Shown here piece by piece: positions 1-30,214 of a stretch of DNA of 30,424 nucleotides (within the stretch, counting starts at the first letter, position 1; the number at the start of each line of letters is the position of its first letter). The notes beneath the pieces are model-generated. The model had not been told where the DNA came from. It saw nothing but the letters and a program-made list of their open reading frames with translations, and made no database searches. Source of the stretch: a virus (Duplodnaviria; Caudoviricetes); the IMG/VR virus record IMGVR_UViG_3300020045_005324, positions 1 to 30,424 of that record; one strand, given 5' to 3'. Both the position numbers and the translations under genes were made by a program.

Positions 1-49
1 ATTATTGTCGAGTAGTTTTCCGTGATTTCCCATATCCTCTCATTTTTAC

Positions 50-70
50 GGCCCTTCGGGGCCTTTTTTT
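50..70 (+). terminator. Intrinsic terminator-like hairpin
   Basis: GGCCC-TTCG-GGGCC stem-loop followed by a T-run. Confidence 0.65.
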
Positions 71-121
71 ATACCAGAGACGTGCATCAATTCAGGGATT
101 TGAATTATTTTGTTTATTTCC

Positions 122-150
122 TTGACATAATAATAGTATTTTGGTATATT
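122..150 (+). promoter_or_regulatory. sigma70-type promoter
   Basis: TTGACA-17 nt-TATATT upstream of the ORF at 197. Confidence 0.7.
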
Positions 151-196
151 TAAATTGTGGGTGGGGAAAAAATAAAATAAAAACGGGAGAAAGATT

Positions 197-370
197 ATGA
201 AGATCAAAAATATCAATGAAAATTTCGGAGATTCCATCGAGTTTGATAGCGTTGAGGAAATGGAAGCCACTGTTGAGGCTTGCGGGTATGAGCTTCCTGC
301 GGACGGGCTGCTGGAAGGCCGGGATTTTGAAAATGTTGGAATCAAAAGCGAGGAGTGCGAGAGCAAATGA
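197..370 (+). CDS. Small acidic hypothetical protein (57 aa, MKIKNINENFGDSIEF...)
   Basis: Read by eye, not in the ORF track. GGGAG SD upstream; stop overlaps the next ATG (ATGA). Confidence 0.7.
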   Translation: MKIKNINENFGDSIEFDSVEEMEATVEACGYELPADGLLEGRDFENVGIKSEECESK

Positions 371-552
371 CCGCCGCCAAGGGCCGTGCCGGGCGGCCCA
401 GAATGGACCCGGCAAAGAAAATGCGGCATCTAAGCGCCACGGTAACACCCGAAACATCGGCGGCTATCGAGGCCGCCAGACTGCCTGGTGAAACCATCGG
501 GCGCGTGATAGACAGGGCTGTTGAGGCCCTGAAGGAGCGGGGAAAAATATGA
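367..552 (+). CDS. Putative ribbon-helix-helix DNA-binding protein
   Basis: AGRP motif, then beta-strand (LSATV) and two helices; ATGA coupling at both ends. Confidence 0.6.
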   Translation: MTAAKGRAGRPRMDPAKKMRHLSATVTPETSAAIEAARLPGETIGRVIDRAVEALKERGKI

Positions 553-770
553 AAAAGTTTAATTTCTAAAATTGGAAATATACCTGGTTGGATGAAGAAA
601 AAACCCGCCTGTCTGTTCAGGCTCTCGTTCCGGCAATCGACGAGGACGGAATTGACCAAACCCGCTGGCCAAAAGACGACCAGGTATCAGAGTGGGTGGG
701 GAAGCCGGTAAAACTCTTTGACGCTGGCGATGCCAATGATTTTCCCGAGGCCATTTACGACGCGAGATGA
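549..770 (+). pseudogene. Hypothetical protein interrupted by one in-frame TAA (567-569)
   Basis: Coupled ATG at 549 is in frame with ORF 588..770: MKKFNF*NWKYTWLDEEK... Confidence 0.5.
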
Positions 771-821
771 GGAGCACTCACCCCTTCGGGGGGATGCTGA
801 TTTTCAAAGGGAGAAGGGAAA

Positions 822-1016
822 ATGAAAGAAAGAAAAAAGCATGTCGGAGATATTGGTCGGAAAACCGGATATGACGTATGGATTTTTGGAGAATGCTCAT
901 GGCACCGCACGGAAGCGGGGGCCAGGAAAAAAGCTGCCGAGGCTCGAAACCGATGCTCAAATATTCAAATAGTCAGCTGTTCCTCGGGAAATTTAATCGG
1001 AGGGAGGCCGGAATAG
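822..1016 (+). CDS. Hypothetical protein
   Basis: Purine-rich SD (AAGGGA) before the ATG; same strand as neighbours. Confidence 0.5.
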   Translation: MKERKKHVGDIGRKTGYDVWIFGECSWHRTEAGARKKAAEARNRCSNIQIVSCSSGNLIGGRPE

Positions 1017-1023
1017 GAAACGC

Positions 1024-1053
1024 TTGACAATAATCATACAATTATAGTATTAT
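1024..1053 (+). promoter_or_regulatory. sigma70-type promoter
   Basis: TTGACA-18 nt-TATTAT followed by an AGGAGG SD. Confidence 0.55.
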
Positions 1054-1072
1054 AGTTCAGGAGGAGCGAAAC

Positions 1073-1216
1073 ATGAAAAAAATTATCCTGATGTCGGTGG
1101 TGCAGGTGCCCACCGGGTTAAAGAATCGCCTGAAAAGTCTTGCCGCAAAGCAGGGCAAGACAATGCAGGGGATTGTCGAAAAGCTCATCAAGAGGTATAT
1201 CGATGGCAAAATCTGA
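1073..1216 (+). CDS. Arc/ParG-like ribbon-helix-helix protein (47 aa)
   Basis: Read by eye: MKKIILMSVVQVPTGLKNRLKSLAAKQGKTMQGIVEKLIKRYIDGKI; strong SD. Confidence 0.7.
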   Translation: MKKIILMSVVQVPTGLKNRLKSLAAKQGKTMQGIVEKLIKRYIDGKI

Positions 1217-1331
1217 TATTCCAGACAGCCCCATCCCCGAGGAAAACGACCATTGCCCTTGCGGCTGGCTCCTGGACGATGACGGCTGCTGTCCGAAGTG
1301 CAAAGCCGAATGGGAGGCCGACAACCGATGA
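1203..1331 (+). CDS. Small Cys-rich (Zn-ribbon-like) protein
   Basis: CPCG...CPKC; ATG at 1203 overlaps the previous gene. Confidence 0.55.
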   Translation: MAKSDIPDSPIPEENDHCPCGWLLDDDGCCPKCKAEWEADNR

Positions 1332-1477
1332 CAACCGCAAATTGGGAAACCATAGCGCAAATCTGTCAAAGAACCGGCCTTGGCCTTGATGCCGTTCTGG
1401 CCGGGATCGCGCTGGAGCATCGGGCGGGGAAAAATGTGTTCAAAATCGAAGGCAAAAATACAATGTGGAAGAAATAA
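1328..1477 (+). CDS. Hypothetical protein running into the compositional junction
   Basis: ATGA-coupled ORF MTTANWETIAQIC...GKNTMWKK. Confidence 0.45.
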   Translation: MTTANWETIAQICQRTGLGLDAVLAGIALEHRAGKNVFKIEGKNTMWKK

Positions 1478-1683
1478 ATGGATTACCAGCTGAAACAATT
1501 GTAATTGCAGAGCCAAAACAATTGATCTTTGGAACTGGTTTGTTAGCAGATCACAACGAAGTTAGATTGGTTGATCAAGACGACACAATGTTAAACGGTA
1601 AAATCATTGGAACAATGGTTTACAATGCTGGAGTTCAGTATTACAACGGTGCTGAAATAGTTTGGGCTAGACCAATAGCATAG
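1465..1683 (+). CDS. C-terminal fragment of major capsid protein (5'-truncated)
   Basis: NGLP..TIV..E..LIFGTGLL.DHNEV...M.YNAGVQY resembles Bacteroidota phage capsid C-termini; followed by a terminator-like hairpin and structural genes. Confidence 0.7.
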   Translation: MEEINGLPAETIVIAEPKQLIFGTGLLADHNEVRLVDQDDTMLNGKIIGTMVYNAGVQYYNGAEIVWARPIA

Positions 1684-1701
1684 TTAAACAAAACAAGTAA
1701 C

Positions 1702-1725
1702 AAAGGCGGTTTAGTTACCGCCTTT
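1702..1725 (+). terminator. Hairpin after capsid gene
   Basis: AAAGGCGGT / ACCGCCTTT perfect inverted repeat. Confidence 0.7.
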
Positions 1726-1742
1726 AATCTAAATATATAATT

Positions 1743-2252
1743 ATGGCTTGTGATTTAACAGCAGGAAGAGCGAAAGTTTGTAAACAAGGCTTAGGAGGTT
1801 TAGGAAAACTTTACCTTTTTAACTTTGTAGAAGATCCGTTTACAGTATTGGCAGGAGTTGCAACCGCAATCAATCCATTGCTTACAACGGTATTTGAATA
1901 TGAATTGGAAGGTGACGGTAATAGTGTTTCTGAAAGTGAAGTGCCTGATAGAAATACAGGAACAACAGTAAACACTCAAACAAGTACTTTTGTCTTAAAG
2001 AAAATTGATGCGGTTACGTCCGCTCAAATGAATCTATTAGCCTATGGATTTCCTATGGCAGTTGTAAAAGATAGAAACGGAATTTATCATGCAATCGGAA
2101 TTGATGATGGAATTGATTTTACAGTGGTTCAATCTACAGGGGGCGCAAAAGCTGAACTAAACGGATATACATTGACCGGAGTTTCTACTTCTGGAAGTTT
2201 ATCGCCTAAATTAGATACAGCAACTATTGCGGCATTTTTGGCTTTGGTTTAA
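1743..2252 (+). CDS. Virion structural protein, putative tail-tube-like
   Basis: MACDLTAGR..CK..LGG N-terminus typical of the gene after the capsid in Bacteroidota phages; beta-rich; flanked by hairpins. Confidence 0.6.
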   Translation: MACDLTAGRAKVCKQGLGGLGKLYLFNFVEDPFTVLAGVATAINPLLTTVFEYELEGDGNSVSESEVPDRNTGTTVNTQTSTFVLKKIDAVTSAQMNLLAYGFPMAVVKDRNGIYHAIGIDDGIDFTVVQSTGGAKAELNGYTLTGVSTSGSLSPKLDTATIAAFLALV

Positions 2253-2321: not shown

Positions 2322-2627
2322 ATGATACATTTATTGCCTATAAATACAACACACGAATTTAATTTTATACCTAGATTCATTCCTAGTAGTGAATTGATAT
2401 TACAATTGTATAAAGAGGAAACGCAACAATTTCAAACAGTTGATAATTTGTATGTTTACGCAAATGGATTAGCAACTATAACATTTGATTTAAATGTATT
2501 TGAAAATGATAAATTTCAAGTTAAAATATTACAAGGTACTGATGTTATTTATAGAGACAAAATATTTGTAACATCACAAAATACGCAGGAATTTAAAGCA
2601 ACAAAAGACCATTACTATTATGAGTAA
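2322..2627 (+). CDS. Hypothetical structural-module protein
   Basis: ATG at 2322 preferred over TTG 2310; overlaps the portal start. Confidence 0.65.
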   Translation: MIHLLPINTTHEFNFIPRFIPSSELILQLYKEETQQFQTVDNLYVYANGLATITFDLNVFENDKFQVKILQGTDVIYRDKIFVTSQNTQEFKATKDHYYYE

Positions 2628-4239
2628 CGATGTAAGACTATTACAATTAAGCAATTATGTACGTCCAAAGTTAGAGGAAAACAAATCTAAGAATTGGGTA
2701 TTGAACGGTAAAAATAATTCGTTTTATCAGTACGTAATAGATCGTTTTAATGGTTCTCCAACCAATGCGGCAATTATTGATAGTTATTCTAATTTAATTT
2801 ATGGCAACGGCTTACGTTCAAAAAATAACAATACAAGTGCTTGGATTAATTTTGTGTCAATATTAAGACCAAAAGAGGTTCGTAAAATAGTTTCAGATTT
2901 TGAATTATTTGGCGAGGCATCATTTCAAGTTATCAAAGCAAAAGATCGTAAAAAATTAGGCGCAATTTATCATATTCCAAAACAACAAATTGTTCCATCT
3001 TTAGAGAATGAAGAAGGCGTAATAGAAGGATATTGGCATTCAAAAGATTGGAGTAATACTCAAAAATACCCACCAGTTTATTATCCTGCTTTTGGAACTT
3101 CAAAAGAAGAGATTGAGATTTACTGTATTAAGCCATATAAAGCCGGTAAAAACTATTTTAGTGATCCTGATTATTTAAGTGCGTTGCCTTATGCTGAAAT
3201 GGAAGAGGAATTGGCAAACTTTTATATTAATTCTATTAAAAAAGGATTAAGTGCTGGATGTATTATTCAAGTGCCTGACGGAGACACATTGACGCCTGAA
3301 GAAAAAGAAGAATTTGAAAAAAAGATAACTCAAAAAATGACAGGCTCGCCAAATGCAATGAGTTTTATTTTAGATTTTTACGGAGGAGACAAGCCTATAA
3401 CCGTTGTTGAATTTCCTGTAAATCAAAAGCAACATCAACAATGGGAGTATTTAACAGGTGAAAGTCGTCAGCAAATAATGACAGGGCATAAGGTTGTATC
3501 TCCAAAACTATTTGGAATTATGTCAGACGGTGGATTCGGAAATAATGCAAATGAACTTGACGAAGCCGAAGCGCAATTAATGAAGCGAGTTATACAGCCA
3601 AAACAAACGCCAATTACAGAAGCATTCGAAGAGGTTATTAATTTCTACGGTATTATGTTAGATTTATATTTTGCGCCTTTAACAGAGCCTAAAACAGTTC
3701 AGTTACATTCACATGACGAAAAAAAAAAGATTGATTTAGATTTGTATGGCGAAGATGAAAATCTTGAAGATTACGAATTAATAGAAGTTAAAGCGGTTGA
3801 TTATGAAGAAGAAAAACGATTAGGATTAATTGAACTATCTACCGGAACAGCTAAGCCACTGCAAAAATCAAGATATGATTTGTTTGATACCATTACAAGA
3901 TATCGATATGCAGGTGATTTAAGCGGAGAAAGACAATTTTGCAAAGATATGTTATCTGTTAAAAAGATATATCGTATTGAAGACATTGAATTAATGAATA
4001 GTTTGCCGGTAAATAGTGGTTTTGGACCAGAAGGAGCAGCAACTTACGACATTTTAAAATATAAAGGCGGTGTAAATTGTCATCATTATTGGGAAAAACT
4101 GACTTATAAACGTAAAAATAAAAGCATAAAAGTAGATCCAAAGTCACCAATAGCAATTGATAAAAGCAATAAACAACCGGCAAAAGGATTAGCAGGAATT
4201 GAGCCTATAAACATGCCGAATCGAGGCGCATTAAAATAA
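2620..4239 (+). CDS. Portal protein with C-terminal Cys/His (MuF-like) extension
   Basis: SPTNAAII, D.ELFG.A, YF..PDY..AL, I..GH.V.SP.LFGI, I.P.Q motifs resemble phage portals; extra domain with RQFC...GGVNCHHYW. Confidence 0.75.
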   Translation: MSNDVRLLQLSNYVRPKLEENKSKNWVLNGKNNSFYQYVIDRFNGSPTNAAIIDSYSNLIYGNGLRSKNNNTSAWINFVSILRPKEVRKIVSDFELFGEASFQVIKAKDRKKLGAIYHIPKQQIVPSLENEEGVIEGYWHSKDWSNTQKYPPVYYPAFGTSKEEIEIYCIKPYKAGKNYFSDPDYLSALPYAEMEEELANFYINSIKKGLSAGCIIQVPDGDTLTPEEKEEFEKKITQKMTGSPNAMSFILDFYGGDKPITVVEFPVNQKQHQQWEYLTGESRQQIMTGHKVVSPKLFGIMSDGGFGNNANELDEAEAQLMKRVIQPKQTPITEAFEEVINFYGIMLDLYFAPLTEPKTVQLHSHDEKKKIDLDLYGEDENLEDYELIEVKAVDYEEEKRLGLIELSTGTAKPLQKSRYDLFDTITRYRYAGDLSGERQFCKDMLSVKKIYRIEDIELMNSLPVNSGFGPEGAATYDILKYKGGVNCHHYWEKLTYKRKNKSIKVDPKSPIAIDKSNKQPAKGLAGIEPINMPNRGALK

Positions 4240-10924: not shown

Positions 10925-11314
10925 ATGAAAAACTTATTAATATTCCTATCGCTATTCCTGATTAGCTGCGGAGGAACACGAAATACTGACACGCAACAGC
11001 TCGAAAACATTGTTATTAAGAATGAATATAAACAAGGTGAAAAGATAGTATTGGGAAATTCTTTTATTTACCGTCCTTTTGACAATTCAAAGCCAATGAT
11101 TTTAGGCGGAAAGAAGTTTGAAAATGCGATTATTTCAAATGATAAAAGTACGGTTATTGAAAAGTGGAAAACTAGAGATATTTTAAAAACGATTACAATT
11201 GAAAAAATAAAGAAAACTAAAAAAACCGATAATACATTACTATACATCGGTTTATTTTTGGTTTTAATTATTGGTGTGCTGGCTTGGTTTAAGTTGCCTA
11301 GTTTTAGGGTTTAG
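10925..11314 (+). CDS. Lipoprotein with C-terminal TM helix, putative unimolecular spanin
   Basis: Lipobox LISC; C-terminal TM LLYIGLFLVLIIGVLAW; downstream of endolysin; TATCTTTG promoter motif at 10909-10916. Confidence 0.7.
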   Translation: MKNLLIFLSLFLISCGGTRNTDTQQLENIVIKNEYKQGEKIVLGNSFIYRPFDNSKPMILGGKKFENAIISNDKSTVIEKWKTRDILKTITIEKIKKTKKTDNTLLYIGLFLVLIIGVLAWFKLPSFRV

Positions 11315-11795
11315 TGATTAATAATAATGTCTTTACAGCTTCAATTCCATTTTTGGTAACACTATAGACCTGACTATTGAATCTTTTGTAATTCTCCATT
11401 AATCCAAGCGAAACTAATTTTTCACATCTTTCGTGTTTTTCACTGTATGAACTATAATTTCTATAAAATTCATCAGGGCAATAATCTCCTATTCTTACGC
11501 CTAAAGAATGCGTTAAATGATTTATTTCTTTTTCTGATAAATCATTAAGAAGTTCGCTTTTTTCTTGACTGTATAAATCTCTTTCAGGAAACCTTCTAGT
11601 TTTAATATGTTGTTTCAACTCCCAAAAAGTATAAGATTCATCATTTGTACATTTTTCTTTAACAGCTTCTTTTTGATTTTTACCATAGATAACTTCAAAT
11701 TGTTTATCATCCTGCCACATATAATGATTGTATGCATCAATAAAGAAATCTGGAAATATGCATTTGTATGCTTTTAATTCTAAAGTCTTTTTCAT
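11304..11795 (-). CDS. Hypothetical protein (possible winged-helix C-terminus)
   Basis: Coupled to the upstream gene; LVSLGLM...Y.VT..G pattern. Confidence 0.65.
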   Translation of the reverse strand: MKKTLELKAYKCIFPDFFIDAYNHYMWQDDKQFEVIYGKNQKEAVKEKCTNDESYTFWELKQHIKTRRFPERDLYSQEKSELLNDLSEKEINHLTHSLGVRIGDYCPDEFYRNYSSYSEKHERCEKLVSLGLMENYKRFNSQVYSVTKNGIEAVKTLLLITKP

Positions 11796-12241
11796 AATAC
11801 AAATTTAATATAAAATTGCGAATTGTAAACATAATCTTGACCATCGTAAAACTCCGCATCTCCGCGTTTGTCATAAGATCCGAGTAAACCAATACCGAAT
11901 TTATCTGTAAAATGATACTCAATAGCACCTTCAACGGCTAATAACGGATAAGTTGCGGCTCGATTAATAACTCCTAATTTAACACCTGCTTTATAATTCC
12001 ATCGGTTAAACGACACATTGTAGCCTATACCGGATGATGTCTCTAAATAACCGTCCTTTAACGCTGCATAATGAATTTGCGGACGAATATAAATGTGATT
12101 GCTAAATTCTGCTTGAAATTCAATTCCTGCATACAAAATATGCTTTTGAAATATCACGTTATCGGTTACGATTTGAATTGAATAACGGTCTTGTGCGTTT
12201 GATATTACTGTAAAAAGCAATAGTAATAATAGTTTTTTCAT
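11792..12241 (-). CDS. Small outer-membrane beta-barrel protein (moron)
   Basis: Signal peptide SNA|Q, about 8 amphipathic beta-strands, aromatic C-terminal strand FYIKFVL. Confidence 0.7.
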   Translation of the reverse strand: MKKLLLLLLFTVISNAQDRYSIQIVTDNVIFQKHILYAGIEFQAEFSNHIYIRPQIHYAALKDGYLETSSGIGYNVSFNRWNYKAGVKLGVINRAATYPLLAVEGAIEYHFTDKFGIGLLGSYDKRGDAEFYDGQDYVYNSQFYIKFVL

Positions 12242-12243
12242 AA

Positions 12244-12429
12244 TTAAAATGGTATTTTAAATTTTTGTTGTTTCGGAATTAGTTCCTGATATTCTAGTTT
12301 TATTTTTTCACTTATTGCATCACGAATAAATTTACCTACACCTATGTTATATGACTTCATTTTTTGAAGTGTTTTATGTTGCGTTTCTGAAATACGAATA
12401 ACCTTTGTTTTTGTTAGTATTTTAGCCAT
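12244..12429 (-). CDS. RHH/CopG-like small DNA-binding protein
   Basis: KVIRIS strand, two helices, V..FIR.AI.EK; alternative start at 12441. Confidence 0.65.
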   Translation of the reverse strand: MAKILTKTKVIRISETQHKTLQKMKSYNIGVGKFIRDAISEKIKLEYQELIPKQQKFKIPF

Positions 12430-12449
12430 TTTGTAATACATTTTTAGCG

Positions 12450-12473
12450 GTTAGCAAGTAGTTATCAGCAACC
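12450..12473 (+). mobile_element. attI-like recombination site (array boundary)
   Basis: GTTATCAGCA core (12461-12470) with no hairpin to its left; second GTTAGC at 12450. Confidence 0.4.
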
Positions 12474-12483
12474 GTTGGAGTCA

Positions 12484-12693
12484 CTAAGCATTATGTTCAA
12501 TTTTATTTGTTAAAATCTCGGCATAACCCCCTCTTGGAGACCAAACTGTATTCCCTTTTTTTTCAAGCATAAATGTTTCTGTAAAATGTCCGAAAACTAC
12601 ATTTTCCATTTCCACAACCGCGCCAAATTCAGTTATTACGGTTTCTGCATTTTTAAAATATTCCCTTACTTCTTTCAATGTTGGTGATCCCAT
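12484..12693 (-). CDS. Hypothetical protein, cassette 1 cargo
   Basis: Single ORF bracketed by GTTATCAGCA ... TGCTGATAAC. Confidence 0.7.
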   Translation of the reverse strand: MGSPTLKEVREYFKNAETVITEFGAVVEMENVVFGHFTETFMLEKKGNTVWSPRGGYAEILTNKIEHNA

Positions 12694-12736
12694 TTTATTT
12701 ATAATTTAAATTGTTAAAAAATCGTGTTTAGTGGTA

Positions 12737-12871
12737 TGCTGATAACAGCGGTTTTGAGCTATTGCCGTATTAGGCTTTGGTTATTATTGTTTTGTGTTTA
12801 TCGTATTGCCGCCGTCGGTAAAACGTTCTTGTACTTTCTCGGCAACATCACAAAGCCGCGAGACGTCATGC
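12737..12871 (+). repeat. attC-like imperfect palindrome 1
   Basis: TGCTGATAAC; GCGGTTTTG/CAAAGCCGC; TTGCCG/CGGCAA; GTCATGC. Confidence 0.7.
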
Positions 12872-12877
12872 CTAATA

Positions 12878-13045
12878 CTACGATTGCAAATCAGATTGAA
12901 GTAATTTTATCTTATCGTTTATTAAATTACCTTGTTTTTGCATAAAATCTTTTGTATAAAAATCTGAATATTTTTCAAATTCTTCTGATTGCTCTTTCTG
13001 CACACGTATAAGCCTTTCTATTTTTAATTTTATTTTATTTTCCAT
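12878..13045 (-). CDS. Hypothetical coiled-coil protein, cassette 2 cargo (55 aa, MENKIK...)
   Basis: ATG 13045 after an A-rich leader; the longer track ORF runs through the palindrome. Confidence 0.65.
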   Translation of the reverse strand: MENKIKLKIERLIRVQKEQSEEFEKYSDFYTKDFMQKQGNLINDKIKLLQSDLQS

Positions 13046-13080
13046 TTTTTTATCGTTAATATTTACTTTTGCCGTACTAG

Positions 13081-13157
13081 GCATAACAACAGCTACAAGC
13101 CAGCAGCCAAAATCTCGCTTATACATAGGCTGCCGTCGTGTAGCAACTCCGTTATGC
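13081..13157 (+). repeat. attC-like imperfect palindrome 2
   Basis: GCATAAC; GCTACA/TGTAGC; GCAGCC/GGCTGC; GTTATGC. Confidence 0.7.
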
Positions 13158-13173
13158 GTCAGCTTCGAGCAAC

Positions 13174-13719
13174 TTATTTAATTTTTACCCTAACCTCATA
13201 CCCGTCACCTACTATTTTATAACTTCTAATATTTAATTCTTTTGCAACTTCTATACTCCATTCAATTGATCCGTGAACATCGTTATTCATTCGATGCGAC
13301 ATAGTAGATTGTCTTACTTTTGTTTTTTCGCAATACTCTTTTTGAGTAATTTTTGCTTTTTCTAATACTGTTTTTATTGGATTGTCATAAAGATTTTCAC
13401 TAAAAACACGCTCTTTTTTATATGCGCAATCAACTCTACTTGGTATTGCTGAATTAAATAAAATGTGATTTTCATTATAAAATAAAATGTGAAATCTTTC
13501 TCTTTCAAAAGCTATTTGTGGCAAACATTTTTCTAATATTTCAAAAATATGATTGTCAAAACCATATTTTTTTATCGATATAGAAAGATTTTTATTAGAA
13601 GATATGCACTTTTTATGGTTTTCAAATCTTTTTTCAATATCAAAACTTTTACCAATATATATTTCTCCTATTGGATTTGTGATTTTATAAACTCCACAAA
13701 CTTTATTAAATTTACTCAT
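13174..13719 (-). CDS. GIY-YIG endonuclease domain fused to an XRE-like HTH
   Basis: GVYKITN...IYIGKS..I.KR..H...E.E...N; C-terminal LEKAKITQKEYCEKTKVRQSTMSHRMN. Confidence 0.8.
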   Translation of the reverse strand: MSKFNKVCGVYKITNPIGEIYIGKSFDIEKRFENHKKCISSNKNLSISIKKYGFDNHIFEILEKCLPQIAFERERFHILFYNENHILFNSAIPSRVDCAYKKERVFSENLYDNPIKTVLEKAKITQKEYCEKTKVRQSTMSHRMNNDVHGSIEWSIEVAKELNIRSYKIVGDGYEVRVKIK

Positions 13720-13838
13720 ATTTTTTTTGGTTTTAATTTCTTAATATATTCTCTAACTTCTAAAATTCTACACGGATGACACATTATATTGTATCTTTTT
13801 CTACCTGTAGCTGGCCTGCCTTTTGCTTTTTTGTTCAT
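13716..13838 (-). CDS. Small basic DNA-binding peptide (40 aa, MNKKAKGRPATGRKRY...)
   Basis: Read by eye; first ORF after the leftward promoter; ATGA-coupled to the GIY-YIG gene. Confidence 0.6.
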   Translation of the reverse strand: MNKKAKGRPATGRKRYNIMCHPCRILEVREYIKKLKPKKI

Positions 13839-13858
13839 TTGTTTTAGTTTTACAAAAG

Positions 13859-13961
13859 CAAAGATAGTTAATTATGTAATATAAAACACAAACGTGTGTA
13901 ATTTAGAATTAATATAAATTAGTATAGTGTGTAATTTGTATTGTTTTTTATATTACTTTTA
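13859..13961. promoter_or_regulatory. Divergent promoter region with operator-like repeats
   Basis: Minus-strand TATCTTTG (13859-13866); plus-strand TACTTTTA (13954-13961); GTGTGTAATTT at 13894 and 13927; 19-bp near-palindrome at 13901. Confidence 0.65.
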
Positions 13962-13990
13962 CACCATAGAAATTTAAAACAAAAACAACT

Positions 13991-14401
13991 ATGAGACCAA
14001 TCGCAATGAAATGCACACAGGAACAATTTGATAGCATCAAGGATAAAATAGAAGCTTCAAATATAGAGAGCTTTGTAAAATATCCTTATGTATGTAATTT
14101 TTATTATAATAAAAAAGAACTTGTTACAAATACTGGAATTCCTTATAAACTAATGGAAAAACACGAGGTATACGAAACATTCGACGCAAACATATTTTTA
14201 CAAGCGTGTGATATTGAAGCAGAGAAAGTTTGGAAGGGAAGTGAATTGCAAATAGATTGGGGCAACGGATGGTTAGATTGTAGAGACGATGTTGAATACC
14301 GGCTTAAACCAAAACCAAACTATCAAAAAGAAATCGAAGCTTTGCAACAAAAAGCTAAAGAAAACGGAATGAACGTAATAATTAATTTTGAAAAGATATG
14401 A
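13991..14401 (+). CDS. Hypothetical early protein
   Basis: First ORF of the rightward operon; EYRLKP motif. Confidence 0.7.
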   Translation: MRPIAMKCTQEQFDSIKDKIEASNIESFVKYPYVCNFYYNKKELVTNTGIPYKLMEKHEVYETFDANIFLQACDIEAEKVWKGSELQIDWGNGWLDCRDDVEYRLKPKPNYQKEIEALQQKAKENGMNVIINFEKI

Positions 14402-14511
14402 GTAATACAGAAAGATTTTACGCTTGGATGCGTGACACTATAAAAAATAAATACGTAAATGTTCCGGAATTAATGATACCGACATTAAGAAAAATAGCTT
14501 TAAATAAATAG
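14398..14511 (+). CDS. Small hypothetical protein (37 aa, MSNTERFYAWM...)
   Basis: Read by eye; ATGA coupling; fills the gap between genes. Confidence 0.55.
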   Translation: MSNTERFYAWMRDTIKNKYVNVPELMIPTLRKIALNK

Positions 14512-14516
14512 AAATT

Positions 14517-14768
14517 ATGAAAACAATATACAACACTTACGTAGCGATGGAATCGCAGGAACAATGCGATAGAATGAAACAATTATGTATTGATAATGGA
14601 TTGCCGATTTGGAATAATAGTACGGCTTTTGTTTTTTGCATTGAACAAAATGTGTTTATGATGACTTCAAAAGAATTTTTTATTTGTATAATTACAGATA
14701 AAGAAAAAAAGGAATATTTAAAAATAACCGAATCAGAATTTATCGAACTTTTAAAAACTACAAAATGA
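14517..14768 (+). CDS. Hypothetical protein
   Basis: Operon packing. Confidence 0.7.
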   Translation: MKTIYNTYVAMESQEQCDRMKQLCIDNGLPIWNNSTAFVFCIEQNVFMMTSKEFFICIITDKEKKEYLKITESEFIELLKTTK

Positions 14769-14980
14769 ATCCAGACGACTACATCCAAGGAACATTCAGA
14801 AATGACAATCCAACAAACATCGAAGAAATAGAATGCGAGCCACAAACAGAACTTGAAGCACAACAAGAATGGAATCAAGAACTGCTATCTAAAATAAACA
14901 AAACAAAAGCAATTATTTTAGAATTTGAAACATCTCCAAATATGGTATTAATACAATTAAAAAAACTTTATAAATTATGA
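14765..14980 (+). CDS. Hypothetical protein
   Basis: ATGA coupling. Confidence 0.65.
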   Translation: MNPDDYIQGTFRNDNPTNIEEIECEPQTELEAQQEWNQELLSKINKTKAIILEFETSPNMVLIQLKKLYKL

Positions 14981-15159
14981 TTCTGCTAGCCACGTTAATA
15001 CTTTCAATATTCCTGTTTTTAGCCTTAATTGCGCTATATATTTCCTTTGAAATAGGAATGGAACTCAACGAAGAAAACGAAGCGTTACACGAATGTTTAG
15101 AGGAGTTGGAAAAAGAAATAAAATATTACATCAATGAAAACAATAAGTCAAATAGCTAA
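14977..15159 (+). CDS. Membrane-anchored coiled-coil protein
   Basis: N-terminal TM segment, acidic helix. Confidence 0.6.
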   Translation: MILLATLILSIFLFLALIALYISFEIGMELNEENEALHECLEELEKEIKYYINENNKSNS

Positions 15160-15403
15160 AGAGGCAGGGGTAACTTATAGAGATGTTTATTCTATAATTA
15201 TTGCAAATAGAATAACCCCGGTAAGTTATAAGGAGCATGAAAGATATAGATTATACGCTCAAATACAAATAGATTTAATTCATAAAGTACTATATTTTGA
15301 ACGTAAATGTAATGTAGTTATTTTAGAAAGCTCAATGAATAAAAAAGAAGCACCGGATTACGACTCATTTAGAAAATTTAAAAAAGAAACTTATACAAGA
15401 TGA
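15134..15403 (+). CDS. HTH DNA-binding protein
   Basis: TISQIAKEAGVTYRDV at the N-terminus. Confidence 0.65.
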   Translation: MKTISQIAKEAGVTYRDVYSIIIANRITPVSYKEHERYRLYAQIQIDLIHKVLYFERKCNVVILESSMNKKEAPDYDSFRKFKKETYTR

Positions 15404-16236
15404 AAAAAGCACAAATATTTAATAATCATTTTCAGAATTTTAAAACTTATGCAATTCCAAAAGCGCAATTAATTATTGCCGATATTCCTTATAATCTTGG
15501 AAATAATGCATATGCTTCTAATCCTGCATGGTACAAAGACGGAGATAATTCAAACGGAGAAAGCGCATTGGCTGGAAAAAGTTTTTTTGATACGGACGAA
15601 GATTTTAGGCCTGCTGAATTTATGCACTTTTGCTCAACTATGCTTAAACCTGAAAAGAAAACGGTAAAAGTTGAAGGTGAAGCAAGGCAAAAAGGAGACA
15701 GCCCTTGTATGATTGTATTTTGCGCATTTGACCAACAAATGGATTTGATACAATTAGCAAAAAGATACGGTCTTAACAACTACATAAATTTAGTTTTTCG
15801 TAAAAACTTTTCTGCACAAGTTTTAAAAGCAAATATGAAAGTTGTAGGAAATTGTGAATATGCGCTTATATTTTATCGTGAAAAATTACCAAAGTTCAGA
15901 AATAAAGGCAAAATGATTTTTAATTGTATGGATTGGCCTAGAGATAATGAAAGTGAAAAAATTCACCCAACACAAAAGCCTGTACAGTTATTAAAAAGAT
16001 TAATCGAAATTTTTACAGACGAGGGCGATGTAGTTATTGATCCTTGTTGCGGAAGTGGTTCGACATTAATTGCTGCACAAGAATTAAAAAGAAAGGGTTT
16101 TGGATTTGAAATAAAAAAACCGTTTCATAAAGCTGCTGAAAATTGGATAAATGAGGAATATCAAAAATTAAGTGATATTGAAGAATTTGGATTTGCAAAA
16201 ACATTAATTAATAAAACACATTCAACACTATTTTAA
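15400..16236 (+). CDS. DNA methyltransferase (N6-A/N4-C, beta class)
   Basis: DIPY catalytic motif precedes HPTQKP and DPCCGSGST SAM-binding motif. Confidence 0.9.
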   Translation: MKKAQIFNNHFQNFKTYAIPKAQLIIADIPYNLGNNAYASNPAWYKDGDNSNGESALAGKSFFDTDEDFRPAEFMHFCSTMLKPEKKTVKVEGEARQKGDSPCMIVFCAFDQQMDLIQLAKRYGLNNYINLVFRKNFSAQVLKANMKVVGNCEYALIFYREKLPKFRNKGKMIFNCMDWPRDNESEKIHPTQKPVQLLKRLIEIFTDEGDVVIDPCCGSGSTLIAAQELKRKGFGFEIKKPFHKAAENWINEEYQKLSDIEEFGFAKTLINKTHSTLF

Positions 16237-17274: not shown

Positions 17275-17976
17275 ATGATAGGAATTTATAAAATTACAAG
17301 TCCGTCAAATCGCGTTTATATTGGACAAAGCATTGATATTGAAAAAAGACTTATGTACTATAAAAACGGACATTCAAAACAACAAGTTAGATTATTTAAT
17401 TCATTAAAAAAATATGGATTTAGCAATCATAAGTTTGAAGTATTATGTGAATGCGAAACGTCAGAACTAAATGAAAAAGAAAGATATTTTCAAGACTTGT
17501 TTAATTGTGTTGAAACTGGATTAAACTGTAAGCTGACAAAAAGTATCGATAGAAAAGGATCGTTAAGTAAAGAAACGAAGCTAAAAATGTCAATTATCAG
17601 AAAAGGTAAAAAGCAATCTTCAGAAACTTGTTTAAAAAAATCTAAAAATATGACTGGAAATAAAAATCCAATGTTTGGTAAGTTTGGAGAATTAAACCCA
17701 TTTTTTGGCAAAAAGCACACAAAAGAAAGTTTAAATAAGATGTCTCCTTTTAAAAAAGGACATAAAATATGTTTAGGTAGAATTTTATCTAACGAAACAA
17801 AAAATAAGATGGGGGTCAGTAAGCGTAAAAAAGTAATAAATACAGACACAAACGAAATACACATATCTGCTAAATCTTTATCAAAAGAAATAGGAATGAA
17901 TTATAATACCTTAAGAAATCAATTAAACGGATCTCATGAAAATAAAACAAAATATAAATACTATGAAAATAATTAA
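17275..17976 (+). CDS. Free-standing GIY-YIG homing endonuclease with NUMOD3-like repeats
   Basis: MIGIYKITSPS.RVYIGQS; S.ETK.KMS and NP.FGKKH repeats; ATG 17275. Confidence 0.9.
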   Translation: MIGIYKITSPSNRVYIGQSIDIEKRLMYYKNGHSKQQVRLFNSLKKYGFSNHKFEVLCECETSELNEKERYFQDLFNCVETGLNCKLTKSIDRKGSLSKETKLKMSIIRKGKKQSSETCLKKSKNMTGNKNPMFGKFGELNPFFGKKHTKESLNKMSPFKKGHKICLGRILSNETKNKMGVSKRKKVINTDTNEIHISAKSLSKEIGMNYNTLRNQLNGSHENKTKYKYYENN

Positions 17977-18664
17977 CGTCGAACAGGGAACTGATGAATG
18001 GCTGTATATTAGATGGGCTAAAATTGGCGGCACAAGGTCAAGTGGGTTGTTTGTAAAATCAGACACATTATTAGAAGAAATATTATCTGAATTGGTAGAG
18101 GATTTTAATGTTTCAGATAACTATATTTCTTTTGAAATGATGCAAGGCAAAGAAAAAGAGCCAGAGGCACGCAAAGCTTTGAATGCTTATTTAGGAATCG
18201 AACTTAAAGAAGTTGGATGGCTGCAATGTGAAGAAATACCGTTGTTAGGCATTTCACCTGATGGGATAACAGAATGCGAAACAATAAGCGCTGAAATTAA
18301 ATGTCCTGCTGCAAAAAAACATTTAAAAACTATATTATCAAATGAAATTCCAAGCGATAATATACACCAATGCCTTCATTATTTTACGGTTAATCCTAAA
18401 TTAGAAAAGCATTACTTTTGTAGTTACAGACCAGAGAATAATTTCAAGTCTATTTTTGTAAAAGAATTAAATATAGATAGTTTAATTGATTTAGGCATAA
18501 CTTATAAGGGCAAAATTAAAGAGGATAGGGGGTTAGGAATTAAAGATTATGTTTGTGAAATTAAAGACATTCGAACCATAAAAGAATGGGTTAAATTAGC
18601 TAAATCAAATGCTAAAGAATTACAAATACAAATAGACGAAAAAATAGAACAATTAAAATTTTAA
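17963..18664 (+). CDS. YqaJ/lambda-exonuclease family protein
   Basis: QGT.EW...R, G...E..AR, SPDG, EIKCP, Q....F; ATG 17963 preferred. Confidence 0.9.
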   Translation: MKIINVEQGTDEWLYIRWAKIGGTRSSGLFVKSDTLLEEILSELVEDFNVSDNYISFEMMQGKEKEPEARKALNAYLGIELKEVGWLQCEEIPLLGISPDGITECETISAEIKCPAAKKHLKTILSNEIPSDNIHQCLHYFTVNPKLEKHYFCSYRPENNFKSIFVKELNIDSLIDLGITYKGKIKEDRGLGIKDYVCEIKDIRTIKEWVKLAKSNAKELQIQIDEKIEQLKF

Positions 18665-29035: not shown

Positions 29036-30214
29036 ATGGGATTATTTGGATTATGGGGTAAAAGCGTTAATGTGGAGAGAGACCGCACTGGTGCTTTTAC
29101 CTATTCTTTTTTAGATCAGGATGGTTTTACAAATTCTACAAAGTATTTAGAATTATCTTTAACAAACCCTGTGTTAATTGCTATAATTGCTTTGCGTTCA
29201 AAAATATACTCTCAAATGAAAATTACTCATTTGAACAGCGCGGGTAAACCAATTGAAAACAGCGAGATAATTAAATTATTCAAACAACCTAATTATTTTC
29301 AATCACAAGAAGATTTTTTCTTCCAGCAAATGTGGTTTTTAAGTGCAGCAGGAACAAATTACACTTACAAAGTTGATGCTTTAAATTCCACAAAAGCAAT
29401 ATTCAATCTTATTCCTTCTGAAATAGATTTAAATAATACTGAGAAAGTTAAGTCTTTTATATATACAAAAGCTGAATTAAAAGCGTATGGAGACAAGAAA
29501 ATTATCTATAAATTAGACGGTCAAACATTCGAAATCAAACTAAAAGATATTATTCCAACTTATGACCTTGCCAATGGATTAGCCTTAAATTCATTAATGA
29601 GTTCTCCTTCGCGTTTAAAAGGAATTTCTAAAACAATTGAAAACATCGAAGAAAATTTACTATCTAAAAATGTAAATTTAAAGATGAGCCAAAAATATCT
29701 TATGGCAAGTCAAGGCGATGGAAACGAAGCGCAAATTCAAGATACTGACCGTAAAGATATATTCTCTAAAATTGCCAAAAAATCATTATTAATTACAAAT
29801 GCAAATATCAAAGCTCAACATTTAGTGAGTGATATGAAAAGATTGTATTTAGACGAGCAATTTTCTAGTGATGCTTTAACATGTTTAAATGCTTTTGATA
29901 TGTCTAAGGATGTTTTGAATTATTTCAGCAATGGATCAAGTACATACGAGAATAAAGAAAAGGCAATGTTAGATTATGTGCAAAACAGCATCCAAACAGA
30001 CGCTAATAACACAATGAACAGTTTTGCCAGTGCTTTTGGATTAATTGATAAAGACGAGTCGTTGGTTGCTACTTATAATCATTTGCCAGTTATGCAATTA
30101 GTAATGAAAACTAAAATAGAAACATTGGCAGCATATCAAGCTACTTTAATTTACGAAACACAGGAAGAACAAAAACGATTTAGTAATAATTTTAAATTAA
30201 TATTAGGATTATGA
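29036..30214 (+). CDS. Portal protein (HK97-like)
   Basis: Directly after TerL; L.KQPNYFQS..DF, G.NY.Y, S.SRL, STYENKE motifs. Confidence 0.85.
   Translation: MGLFGLWGKSVNVERDRTGAFTYSFLDQDGFTNSTKYLELSLTNPVLIAIIALRSKIYSQMKITHLNSAGKPIENSEIIKLFKQPNYFQSQEDFFFQQMWFLSAAGTNYTYKVDALNSTKAIFNLIPSEIDLNNTEKVKSFIYTKAELKAYGDKKIIYKLDGQTFEIKLKDIIPTYDLANGLALNSLMSSPSRLKGISKTIENIEENLLSKNVNLKMSQKYLMASQGDGNEAQIQDTDRKDIFSKIAKKSLLITNANIKAQHLVSDMKRLYLDEQFSSDALTCLNAFDMSKDVLNYFSNGSSTYENKEKAMLDYVQNSIQTDANNTMNSFASAFGLIDKDESLVATYNHLPVMQLVMKTKIETLAAYQATLIYETQEEQKRFSNNFKLILGL

What the first reader, a model, noticed from the sequence alone, without database searches (positions are those of the whole stretch)
12450..13164. 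Integron-like gene-cassette array without an integrase in a Bacteroidota phage
Seen: two GC-rich imperfect palindromes (12737-12871 and 13081-13157) with ..TAAC and GT(T/C)A.. ends alternate with single short ORFs. Each cassette's own ends are complementary: GTTATCAGCA (12461) with TGCTGATAAC (12737), 10/10; GTCATGCCTAATAC (12865) with GTACTAGGCATAAC (13074), 12/14. This is the pattern expected if each unit was a circle integrated at G|TT. The palindrome bodies differ in sequence and length but share architecture, as attC sites do. ORFs point toward the attI-like end and would be read from the promoter at 13866. No integrase is in the window. Inference: the phage acquires and shuffles accessory genes with a host or trans-acting recombinase. 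From memory, the palindromes may correspond to the Rfam Flavo-1 motif, which would then be DNA recombination sites rather than RNAs. The GTC variant at 12865 may have immobilised one site.
Basis: partly seen in the sequence, partly recalled or inferred. Interest (0 to 1): 0.82.

Follow-up and report, generated by a model that had tools for sequence, protein, structure and literature searches.

The report
Integron-like cassette array in Flavobacterium phage
Two small genes of this phage sit in swappable DNA units bounded by hairpin-forming sites; related phages gain, lose and reorder such units exactly at these sites, likely using a borrowed recombinase that differs from the known integron enzyme, which points to an overlooked gene-shuffling system of Bacteroidota and their viruses.

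Summary
Confirmed. The window holds an attI-like site (G|TT at 12461), two cassettes (12462-12865, 12866-13151) with self-complementary ends, and the stub of a third. One 10/10 match alone is chance-level, but the family evidence is strong. There are 190 such sites on one strand against 6 on the other and 2 in shuffles (85 sequences). Own ends pair in 84% of 164 units against 6% at random. In cultured Flavobacterium phages without a recombinase hit, indels end at GTT, and one 439-bp unit moved intact to the attI-like site. The same sites follow a 347-aa tyrosine recombinase in Flavobacterium chromosomes (15 of 20 loci; controls 1 of 20) and precede a 267-aa one in other phages. The host enzyme lacks the IntI-specific insertion, and both fall below the IntI model cut-off. 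The site geometry is non-canonical, so this works like an integron but is not a classical one. Flavo-1 is rejected, and immobilisation by GTC is unsupported. Both window cassettes share their ends with cassettes carrying unrelated genes, a possible trace of cassette genesis. I found no description in print, apart from one member site inside a published phage CALIN. This scan has noted the system before in other genomes.

The parts
12244..12441 (-). 65-aa gene (start may be 12429), fixed downstream neighbour of the array; ribbon-helix-helix-like by prediction; occupies the slot held by the recombinase in phages that have one
   Evidence: phrog_25647; 80 viral loci; model with two helices, pLDDT 73.5 (the RHH label is my reading); recombinase slot
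12437..12467 (+). attI-like docking site: conserved block, L-like box 12449-12455, 5-nt spacer, crossover G|TT at 12461/12462
   Evidence: located in 71 of 80 relatives, conserved up to GTTA and variable after it
12462..12865 (+). cassette 1 (404 bp): 10-bp self-complementary ends, 69-aa ORF, long hairpin site
   Evidence: ends shared with the 418-bp cassette core of L022, which carries an unrelated ORF
12484..12693 (-). cassette 1 ORF, 69 aa, own ATG, no family
   Evidence: only itself found in the protein search
12743..12868 (+). attC-like site 1 (126 nt, long class); R' reads GTC instead of GTT
   Evidence: circle form folds at -22.7 (bottom) against -20.5 (top) kcal/mol
12866..13151 (+). 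cassette 2 (286 bp): 12/14 self-complementary ends, ORF, short hairpin site
   Evidence: ends shared with cassettes of L005, L008, L027, L036 and L050, which carry unrelated ORFs
12878..13045 (-). cassette 2 ORF, 55 aa from its own ATG (82 aa if read from the ATG at 13126 inside site 2); stop at cassette positions 14-16
   Evidence: only itself found
13084..13154 (+). attC-like site 2 (71 nt, short class)
   Evidence: z -3.5 on the minus strand; homologue in L043 flanked by other cassettes
13151..13173 (+). stub of a third cassette: a start sequence used by cassettes in L025, L044, L040 and L020, with no matching end here
13174..13719 (-). GIY-YIG homing endonuclease gene whose stop abuts the stub
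13859..13892 (-). candidate Bacteroidota-type promoter (consensus recalled) pointing through the array
   Evidence: only match in the window, but 4.7 expected by chance; lies in the divergent intergenic gap

Best explanation
This is a short array of mobile gene cassettes behind an attI-like docking site, likely excised and reinserted at G|TT by a tyrosine recombinase that lacks the IntI insertion and is likely supplied by the Flavobacterium host. Shown: cassette boundaries, self-complementary ends (10 bp, a conserved A/C mismatch, then about 4 bp), junctions at G|TT in relatives, exact movement of a unit to the attI-like site in recombinase-less phages, and linkage of the same sites to a 347-aa host and a 267-aa phage recombinase. 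Inferred: the bottom strand folds into the substrate; cassettes leave as circles; the host enzyme does the work; cassettes are transcribed from the promoter near 13860 towards attI, so new arrivals land last before the 65-aa gene. Each gene is self-contained, with its start inside or just after its own site and its stop often at the cassette edge. The array would give the phage a way to sample accessory genes, often DNA methyltransferases in relatives; the two cargo genes here have no known relatives.
For: 190 sites on one strand, 6 on the other and 2 in shuffles, in 85 sequences. Own-end run of 7 or more in 84% of 164 units, against 8% for the next cassette's start and 6% for random pairs. 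In 16 cultured phages, 78 of 86 breakpoint ends lie within -6..+12 of a detected GTT, and 6 more at GTTA of sites the detector missed. A 439-bp unit is identical at an internal position in lillamy9-6 and at the attI-like site in lillamy9-7, with all junctions exact; neither genome gave a hit to the host recombinase. Distinct units: 9, 8, 5 from the attI end and 2, 2, 3 from the far end. Host: 57 sites, all downstream and on the strand of the recombinase, in 15 of 20 loci; controls 1 site in 20 loci. A host cassette has both 20-nt ends identical to those of a phage cassette from this group. Bottom strand more stable in 142 of 146 phage and 49 of 49 host circle forms.
Against: No recombination, circle or transcript was observed. 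The host is inferred from relatives. The window-type attI differs from both the host and the recombinase-phage versions at positions -7/-6. 5 of 20 host recombinase loci showed no site. This phage has no exact empty or filled twin, its third cassette is broken, and a complete close relative (G065) has no site at this locus. One search had no positive control. The fold asymmetry has no shuffled control and may reflect base skew. Breakpoint pairs are not independent.
Confidence: 0.62

Rival explanations
1. Same cassette system, but the working enzyme is the 267-aa recombinase of a co-infecting phage or prophage; this lineage lost its own copy from the slot now held by the 65-aa gene.
For: In 80 viral loci, 123 sites lie upstream of the recombinase on the opposite strand against 12 elsewhere and 3 in shuffles. 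Their cassette genes are reversed as here (66 of 78), and the first GTT lies near the start codon in 21 loci. The array-linked phage enzymes group apart from the host ones (13 rows, SH-aLRT 99, quick tree).
Against: Needs co-infection, whereas the host enzyme is common (25 of the 30 best hits, one per genome among 61 searched, are 341-385-aa members). The attI of those phages is a strictly conserved AT-only motif unlike the one here.
Confidence: 0.18
2. The cassettes are real, but the array in this phage is a frozen relic, now changed only by decay and by homologous exchange between phages.
For: No recombinase; broken third cassette; rare GTC (3 of 603 detections, redundant loci included); orphan cargo.
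Against: Relatives carry different first cassettes at the same conserved site. Recombinase-less cultured phages show an exact move to attI. GTC in one partner is tolerated by IntI1.
Confidence: 0.13
3. The palindromes are regulatory RNA or REP-like repeats, and modules are swapped by the phage's own homologous recombination (a YqaJ exonuclease is in the window).
For: Long sites often hold an in-frame ATG (53 of 123); one terminator-like hit lies in site 2, at chance level; YqaJ at 17936-18664.
Against: Does not explain why ends pair within a unit but not within a site, why breakpoints sit at GTT, the move to attI on a few bases of homology, or the tight linkage to tyrosine recombinases. No Rfam family matches.
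Confidence: 0.06

Closest known systems
Integrons (IntI, attI, attC cassettes)
   Same: G|TT crossover; cassette ends complementary in the circle; chimeric sites in the array; insertion at a fixed site beside a tyrosine recombinase; strand-biased folding; more variation near attI.
   Different: The host recombinase lacks the IntI-specific insertion, and host and phage enzymes score below TIGR02249. R' is GTTRRRY in only 4 of 160; end pairing runs to about 15 bp with a fixed mismatch; the right arm is about 4 nt longer next to the core. Phage genes point towards attI. In the host the array lies 3' of the recombinase on the same strand.
Phage CALINs of Qi et al. 2023 (PMC9892861)
   Same: Integrase-less arrays in virulent phages, with methyltransferase cargo. 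Their P12002L_attC1 is a member of this site family.
   Different: They treated the sites as ordinary attC for IntI1; P12002L_attC1 was the one of six that failed. The sections I read name no Bacteroidota-specific site family, cognate recombinase or reversed genes.
Rfam Flavo-1 (RF01705)
   Same: A repeat of Bacteroidota.
   Different: No match; different sequence.
XerA-like tyrosine recombinases (NF040815)
   Same: Best profile for both the host (220.7 bits, cut-off 220) and the phage enzymes (168-192 bits); best solved relatives are archaeal XerA.
   Different: Here they sit beside cassette arrays; XerC/D-like controls do not.

Membership tests
Classical integron | IntI gene next to the array | tested here: not met
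   No PF00589 hit in G000 (81% complete) or in the array-bearing relative G068 (97%)
Classical integron | Associated recombinase carries the IntI-specific insertion / passes the integron-integrase model | tested here: not met
   Host enzyme 200 bits, phage enzymes 150-155, cut-off 265; against IntI4 (2a3v) a 22-residue gap in the host enzyme faces 64 residues
Classical integron | attI-type fixed site where cassettes enter at G|TT | tested here: met
   exact move to that site in lillamy9-7
Classical integron | Cassette ends complementary within a cassette, chimeric within a site | tested here: met
Classical integron | Canonical attC: GTTRRRY core and near-equal arms | tested here: not met
   GTTRRRY in 4 of 160; arm offset +4 is commonest (124 of 190); the aadA7 control has net offset 0 by inspection
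Classical integron | Cassette ORFs on the top strand, attC at their 3' end | tested here: not met
   148 of 160 on the bottom strand, nearly all from phage loci; host arrays do follow the rule, 42 of 50
Classical integron | Folded bottom strand is the recombined substrate | tested here: inconclusive
   Predicted folding favours the bottom strand; recombination not testable
CALIN (IntegronFinder definition) | At least two hits to the attC covariance model without intI | not testable with these tools
   The attC model is not held; two sites and no intI are present by my own detection
Flavo-1 RNA motif | Match to RF01705 | tested here: not met

The most novel reading that the evidence does not exclude
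A second integron lineage, run by XerA-like recombinases without the IntI insertion on hairpin sites of different geometry, is shared by Bacteroidota chromosomes and their lytic phages. Lytic phages hijack it to reorder anti-restriction genes, and cassette shells are reloaded with unrelated genes, so the unsolved step of cassette creation can be watched and tested here.
Probability: 0.35. Interest if true: 0.9.

Novelty: new variant of a known kind. Interest (0 to 1): 0.74.

Why it matters
Standard surveys define integrons by the IntI-specific domain and dismiss other recombinases near attC sites (PMC4889954, passages), and they report few integrons in Bacteroidetes (PMC9024848, passages). If this holds, a large phylum and its phages run an integron-type system that those tools miss, and hairpin-site recombination would not need the IntI insertion. 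Cultured phages and hosts exist in which a cassette methyltransferase may set host range (PMC7077304, passages), so it can be tested at once. Shared shells with unrelated cargo give a handle on how cassettes are made. This window is itself a small, ordinary member of the system.

Tried and rejected
Flavo-1 or any Rfam family: no hit. My idea that GTT keeps a fixed reading frame, so that shuffling makes in-frame fusions: rejected, because all three frames occur and the loop ATG belongs to the cassette's own gene. GTC as an immobilising change: unsupported. Relatives of the two cargo proteins: only weak partial tblastn hits and only themselves in the protein search at similar lengths; longer or shorter forms were not searched. 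A single host recombinase query against viral contigs found nothing; the alignment query did. No recombinase in the fetched viral loci of this group. An end partner for the third cassette: none better than 8/10 in 13160-16000. Sigma-70 promoter and terminator scans were at chance level. Whole cassettes shared between host and phage arrays: none, only two partial hits. Sequencing runs: none was listed. The 65-aa protein has no convincing solved relative, and I ran no fold search on its model. The recombinase tree is a quick tree without an IntI row, so I draw no order of events from it.

Full report
Context. The window is a 30.4-kb linear virus record rated 81% complete, with terminase, portal, lysozyme, helicase and primase genes. 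Its nearest named matches around the finding are Flavobacterium and Polaribacter phages, so a Flavobacteriaceae host is inferred. The finding lies in a leftward block, 11304-13838, between late genes and a divergent early block.

Observation. On their own they are weak: five 10/10 GTT..AAC pairs occur in the window and shuffles give 2.4; site 1 folds no better than shuffles, though site 2 does. Rfam gives nothing, Flavo-1 included; the Flavo-1 rows in the supplement of PMC2864571 (passages seen) are a different repeat.

The family. I fetched the best 80 of 120 viral stretches that encode the 65-aa gene next to the array. Upstream of that gene the DNA is conserved up to a GTTA and then differs from phage to phage; the site was located in 71 of 80. 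A detector for TAAC-arm-loop-arm-GTT sites found 190 on one strand, 6 on the other and 2 in shuffles, over 85 sequences and 603 kb; in the anchored loci all but 2 lay upstream of that gene. Lengths cluster near 120-131 and 70-90 nt. In 164 distinct units, the start pairs with the unit's own end for 7 or more bases in 84%, with the end of the site it sits beside in 8% (161 units), and at random in 6%. Pairing runs 10 bases, breaks at base 11 (A opposite C in 95 of 102) and resumes for about four. This is the chimeric-site signature described for integron arrays (PMC4889954, passages). For later counts I kept 160 units with at least 8/10 own-end matches, a few from MAG loci. In 148 of these the long ORF is on the bottom strand; stops fall at -16 (39) or -4 (34) from the cassette edge; 53 of 123 long sites and 0 of 37 short sites hold an in-frame ATG. 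Of 127 cargo ORFs, 16 are DNA-modifying enzymes, 6 carry the phage domain PF09643, 4 have other families and 101 have none.

Movement. In 16 cultured phages of Flavobacterium LMO6/LMO9, the arrays are different orders of a shared set of units behind one invariant attI-like site. Of 86 non-redundant breakpoint ends, 78 lie within -6..+12 of a detected GTT, 6 at GTTA of sites the detector missed (read by eye) and 2 inside an arm; the pairs are not independent. A 439-bp unit is identical in lillamy9-6, where it is internal, and in lillamy9-7, where it is first. Moving it in silico reproduces lillamy9-7 for 5,778 bases from the locus start, and the vacated junction is exact. Two other pairs differ by 439 and 506 bp with only 6-7 shared bases around GTT. 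Variation is highest at the attI end (9, 8, 5 distinct units against 2, 2, 3). The two lillamy genomes and three other array-bearing phages gave no hit to the host recombinase (0 of 5, no positive control). The paper that isolated these phages has no occurrence of 'integron' in its main text, and links plating efficiency to a methyltransferase (PMC7077304, passages; supplements not read).

The enzyme. In 61 genomes of the genus of a Flavobacterium MAG, 25 of the 30 best PF13495 hits are 341-385-aa tyrosine recombinases. I fetched long flanks for 20 such loci (19 of those 30, chosen for contig length, plus one more) and for 20 lower-scoring XerC/D-like loci. The first set holds 57 sites, all downstream and on the gene's strand, in 15 of 20 loci; the controls hold 1. 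In 9 of the 15 the first cassette starts 103-156 bases after the stop codon. Host genes mostly face the classical way (42 of 50, four copies of one duplicated unit included), and 8 are reversed as in phages. The enzyme scores below the integron-integrase cut-off and lacks the stretch that IntI4 has between its residues 181 and 246. The best 80 of 558 viral hits are mostly 260-279 aa (70 of 80), with 123 sites upstream on the opposite strand, 12 elsewhere and 3 in shuffles; 45 of 80 loci have a site, and many of the rest have little upstream DNA. Three of these proteins also score below the IntI cut-off. Their layout is cassettes, attI, recombinase, in one direction of transcription. In the window the 65-aa gene stands in that last slot. 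The three attI types share T(-9), A(-8), A(-4) and A(-1) but differ elsewhere.

This array. It consists of attI-like 12437-12467, cassette 1 (12462-12865), cassette 2 (12866-13151), and a stub 13151-13173 that matches cassette starts elsewhere but has no end here and abuts a GIY-YIG gene. Both cargo proteins are orphans. Cassette 1 shares both ends with a cassette of L022, and cassette 2 with cassettes of five other phages, yet blastp finds no similarity among their main ORFs. Across the set, 21 of 25 pairs with at least 18/20 identity at both ends have unrelated middles. One host cassette has both 20-nt ends identical to a phage cassette's. The 163-aa gene at 11304-11795 is free here and in L115 but is cassette cargo in L005. 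How shells take new cargo is unexplained; conversion between shells is as possible as a dedicated loading step. GTC at 12865 looks like a private change, since the five shell relatives have GTT; with IntI1 the same change in one partner is neutral (PMC2811028, abstract and section 15).

Mechanism. Shown: boundaries, end pairing, exact junctions, movement to attI, linkage to two related recombinases. Inferred: excision as circles from the folded bottom strand (favoured in 142 of 146 phage and 49 of 49 host circle forms, no shuffled control), action of the host enzyme in trans, and transcription from 13859-13892 (a single match to a recalled consensus, not significant). I put about 0.93 on these being recombinase-made cassettes and 0.62 on the whole account with the host enzyme.

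Comparison and novelty. It works like an integron but fails the membership tests on the IntI insertion, the GTTRRRY core (4 of 160), arm geometry and gene direction. The closest report is Qi et al. 2023 (PMC9892861; part 2 of the text, section 3.4, passages and part 1 of the supplement seen). Their P12002L_attC1 is found by my detector and was the one site of six that IntI1 did not recombine. Their attC2 is not found by it and appears to be a half-site at the array's end (my reading). PMC8138268 (passages) notes that the insertion is not fully conserved in its integron-like subgroup. PMC13700133 (passages) found no integron in a Flavobacterium genome with IntegronFinder; I did not test that genome. 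PMC8618304 (passages) lists Bacteroidota among integron-bearing phyla. Nine literature searches (listings only for papers not named above) showed no description of this system; the library lacks most subscription papers. This scan has recorded the system in other genomes; those notes were leads, not support.

Verdict. A real feature, a new variant of a known kind, interest 0.74. The system is surprising and testable in cultured phages; this window is a modest member of it.

Noticed in passing
L025, L047, L052, L053 (about 460 bases before the 65-aa gene match): A GIY-YIG gene sits between the attI-like site and the 65-aa gene, with about the first 12 codons of that gene duplicated on both sides of it.
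   Followed up: partly
window 11304-11795; L005, L115: The same 163-aa gene is cassette cargo in L005 but site-free here and in L115: a snapshot of capture into, or escape from, a cassette.
   Followed up: partly
L022, L048, L052 (far end of the array): The last GTT is followed directly by promoter-like DNA, suggesting that the empty platform is promoter, attI, 65-aa gene.
   Followed up: partly
window 13084-13154; L043, L036, L008: The same hairpin body occurs behind different cassette ends and the same end in front of different bodies, as if exchange also occurs at the left AAC.
   Followed up: no
L160 (G033): A host array holds four copies of one 407-bp cassette core at separate positions.
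   Followed up: no
window 2620-4239 and 29036-30214: Two portal-like genes in one genome.
   Followed up: no
window 1-2000: GC 0.43-0.48 against about 0.30 elsewhere, with mostly short ORFs; possible mis-join or foreign DNA.
   Followed up: no
NZ_CP041688.1 16035-17075 (hit H106): A Chryseobacterium plasmid carries a full-length, 70% identical copy of the host recombinase; its flanks were not examined.
   Followed up: no
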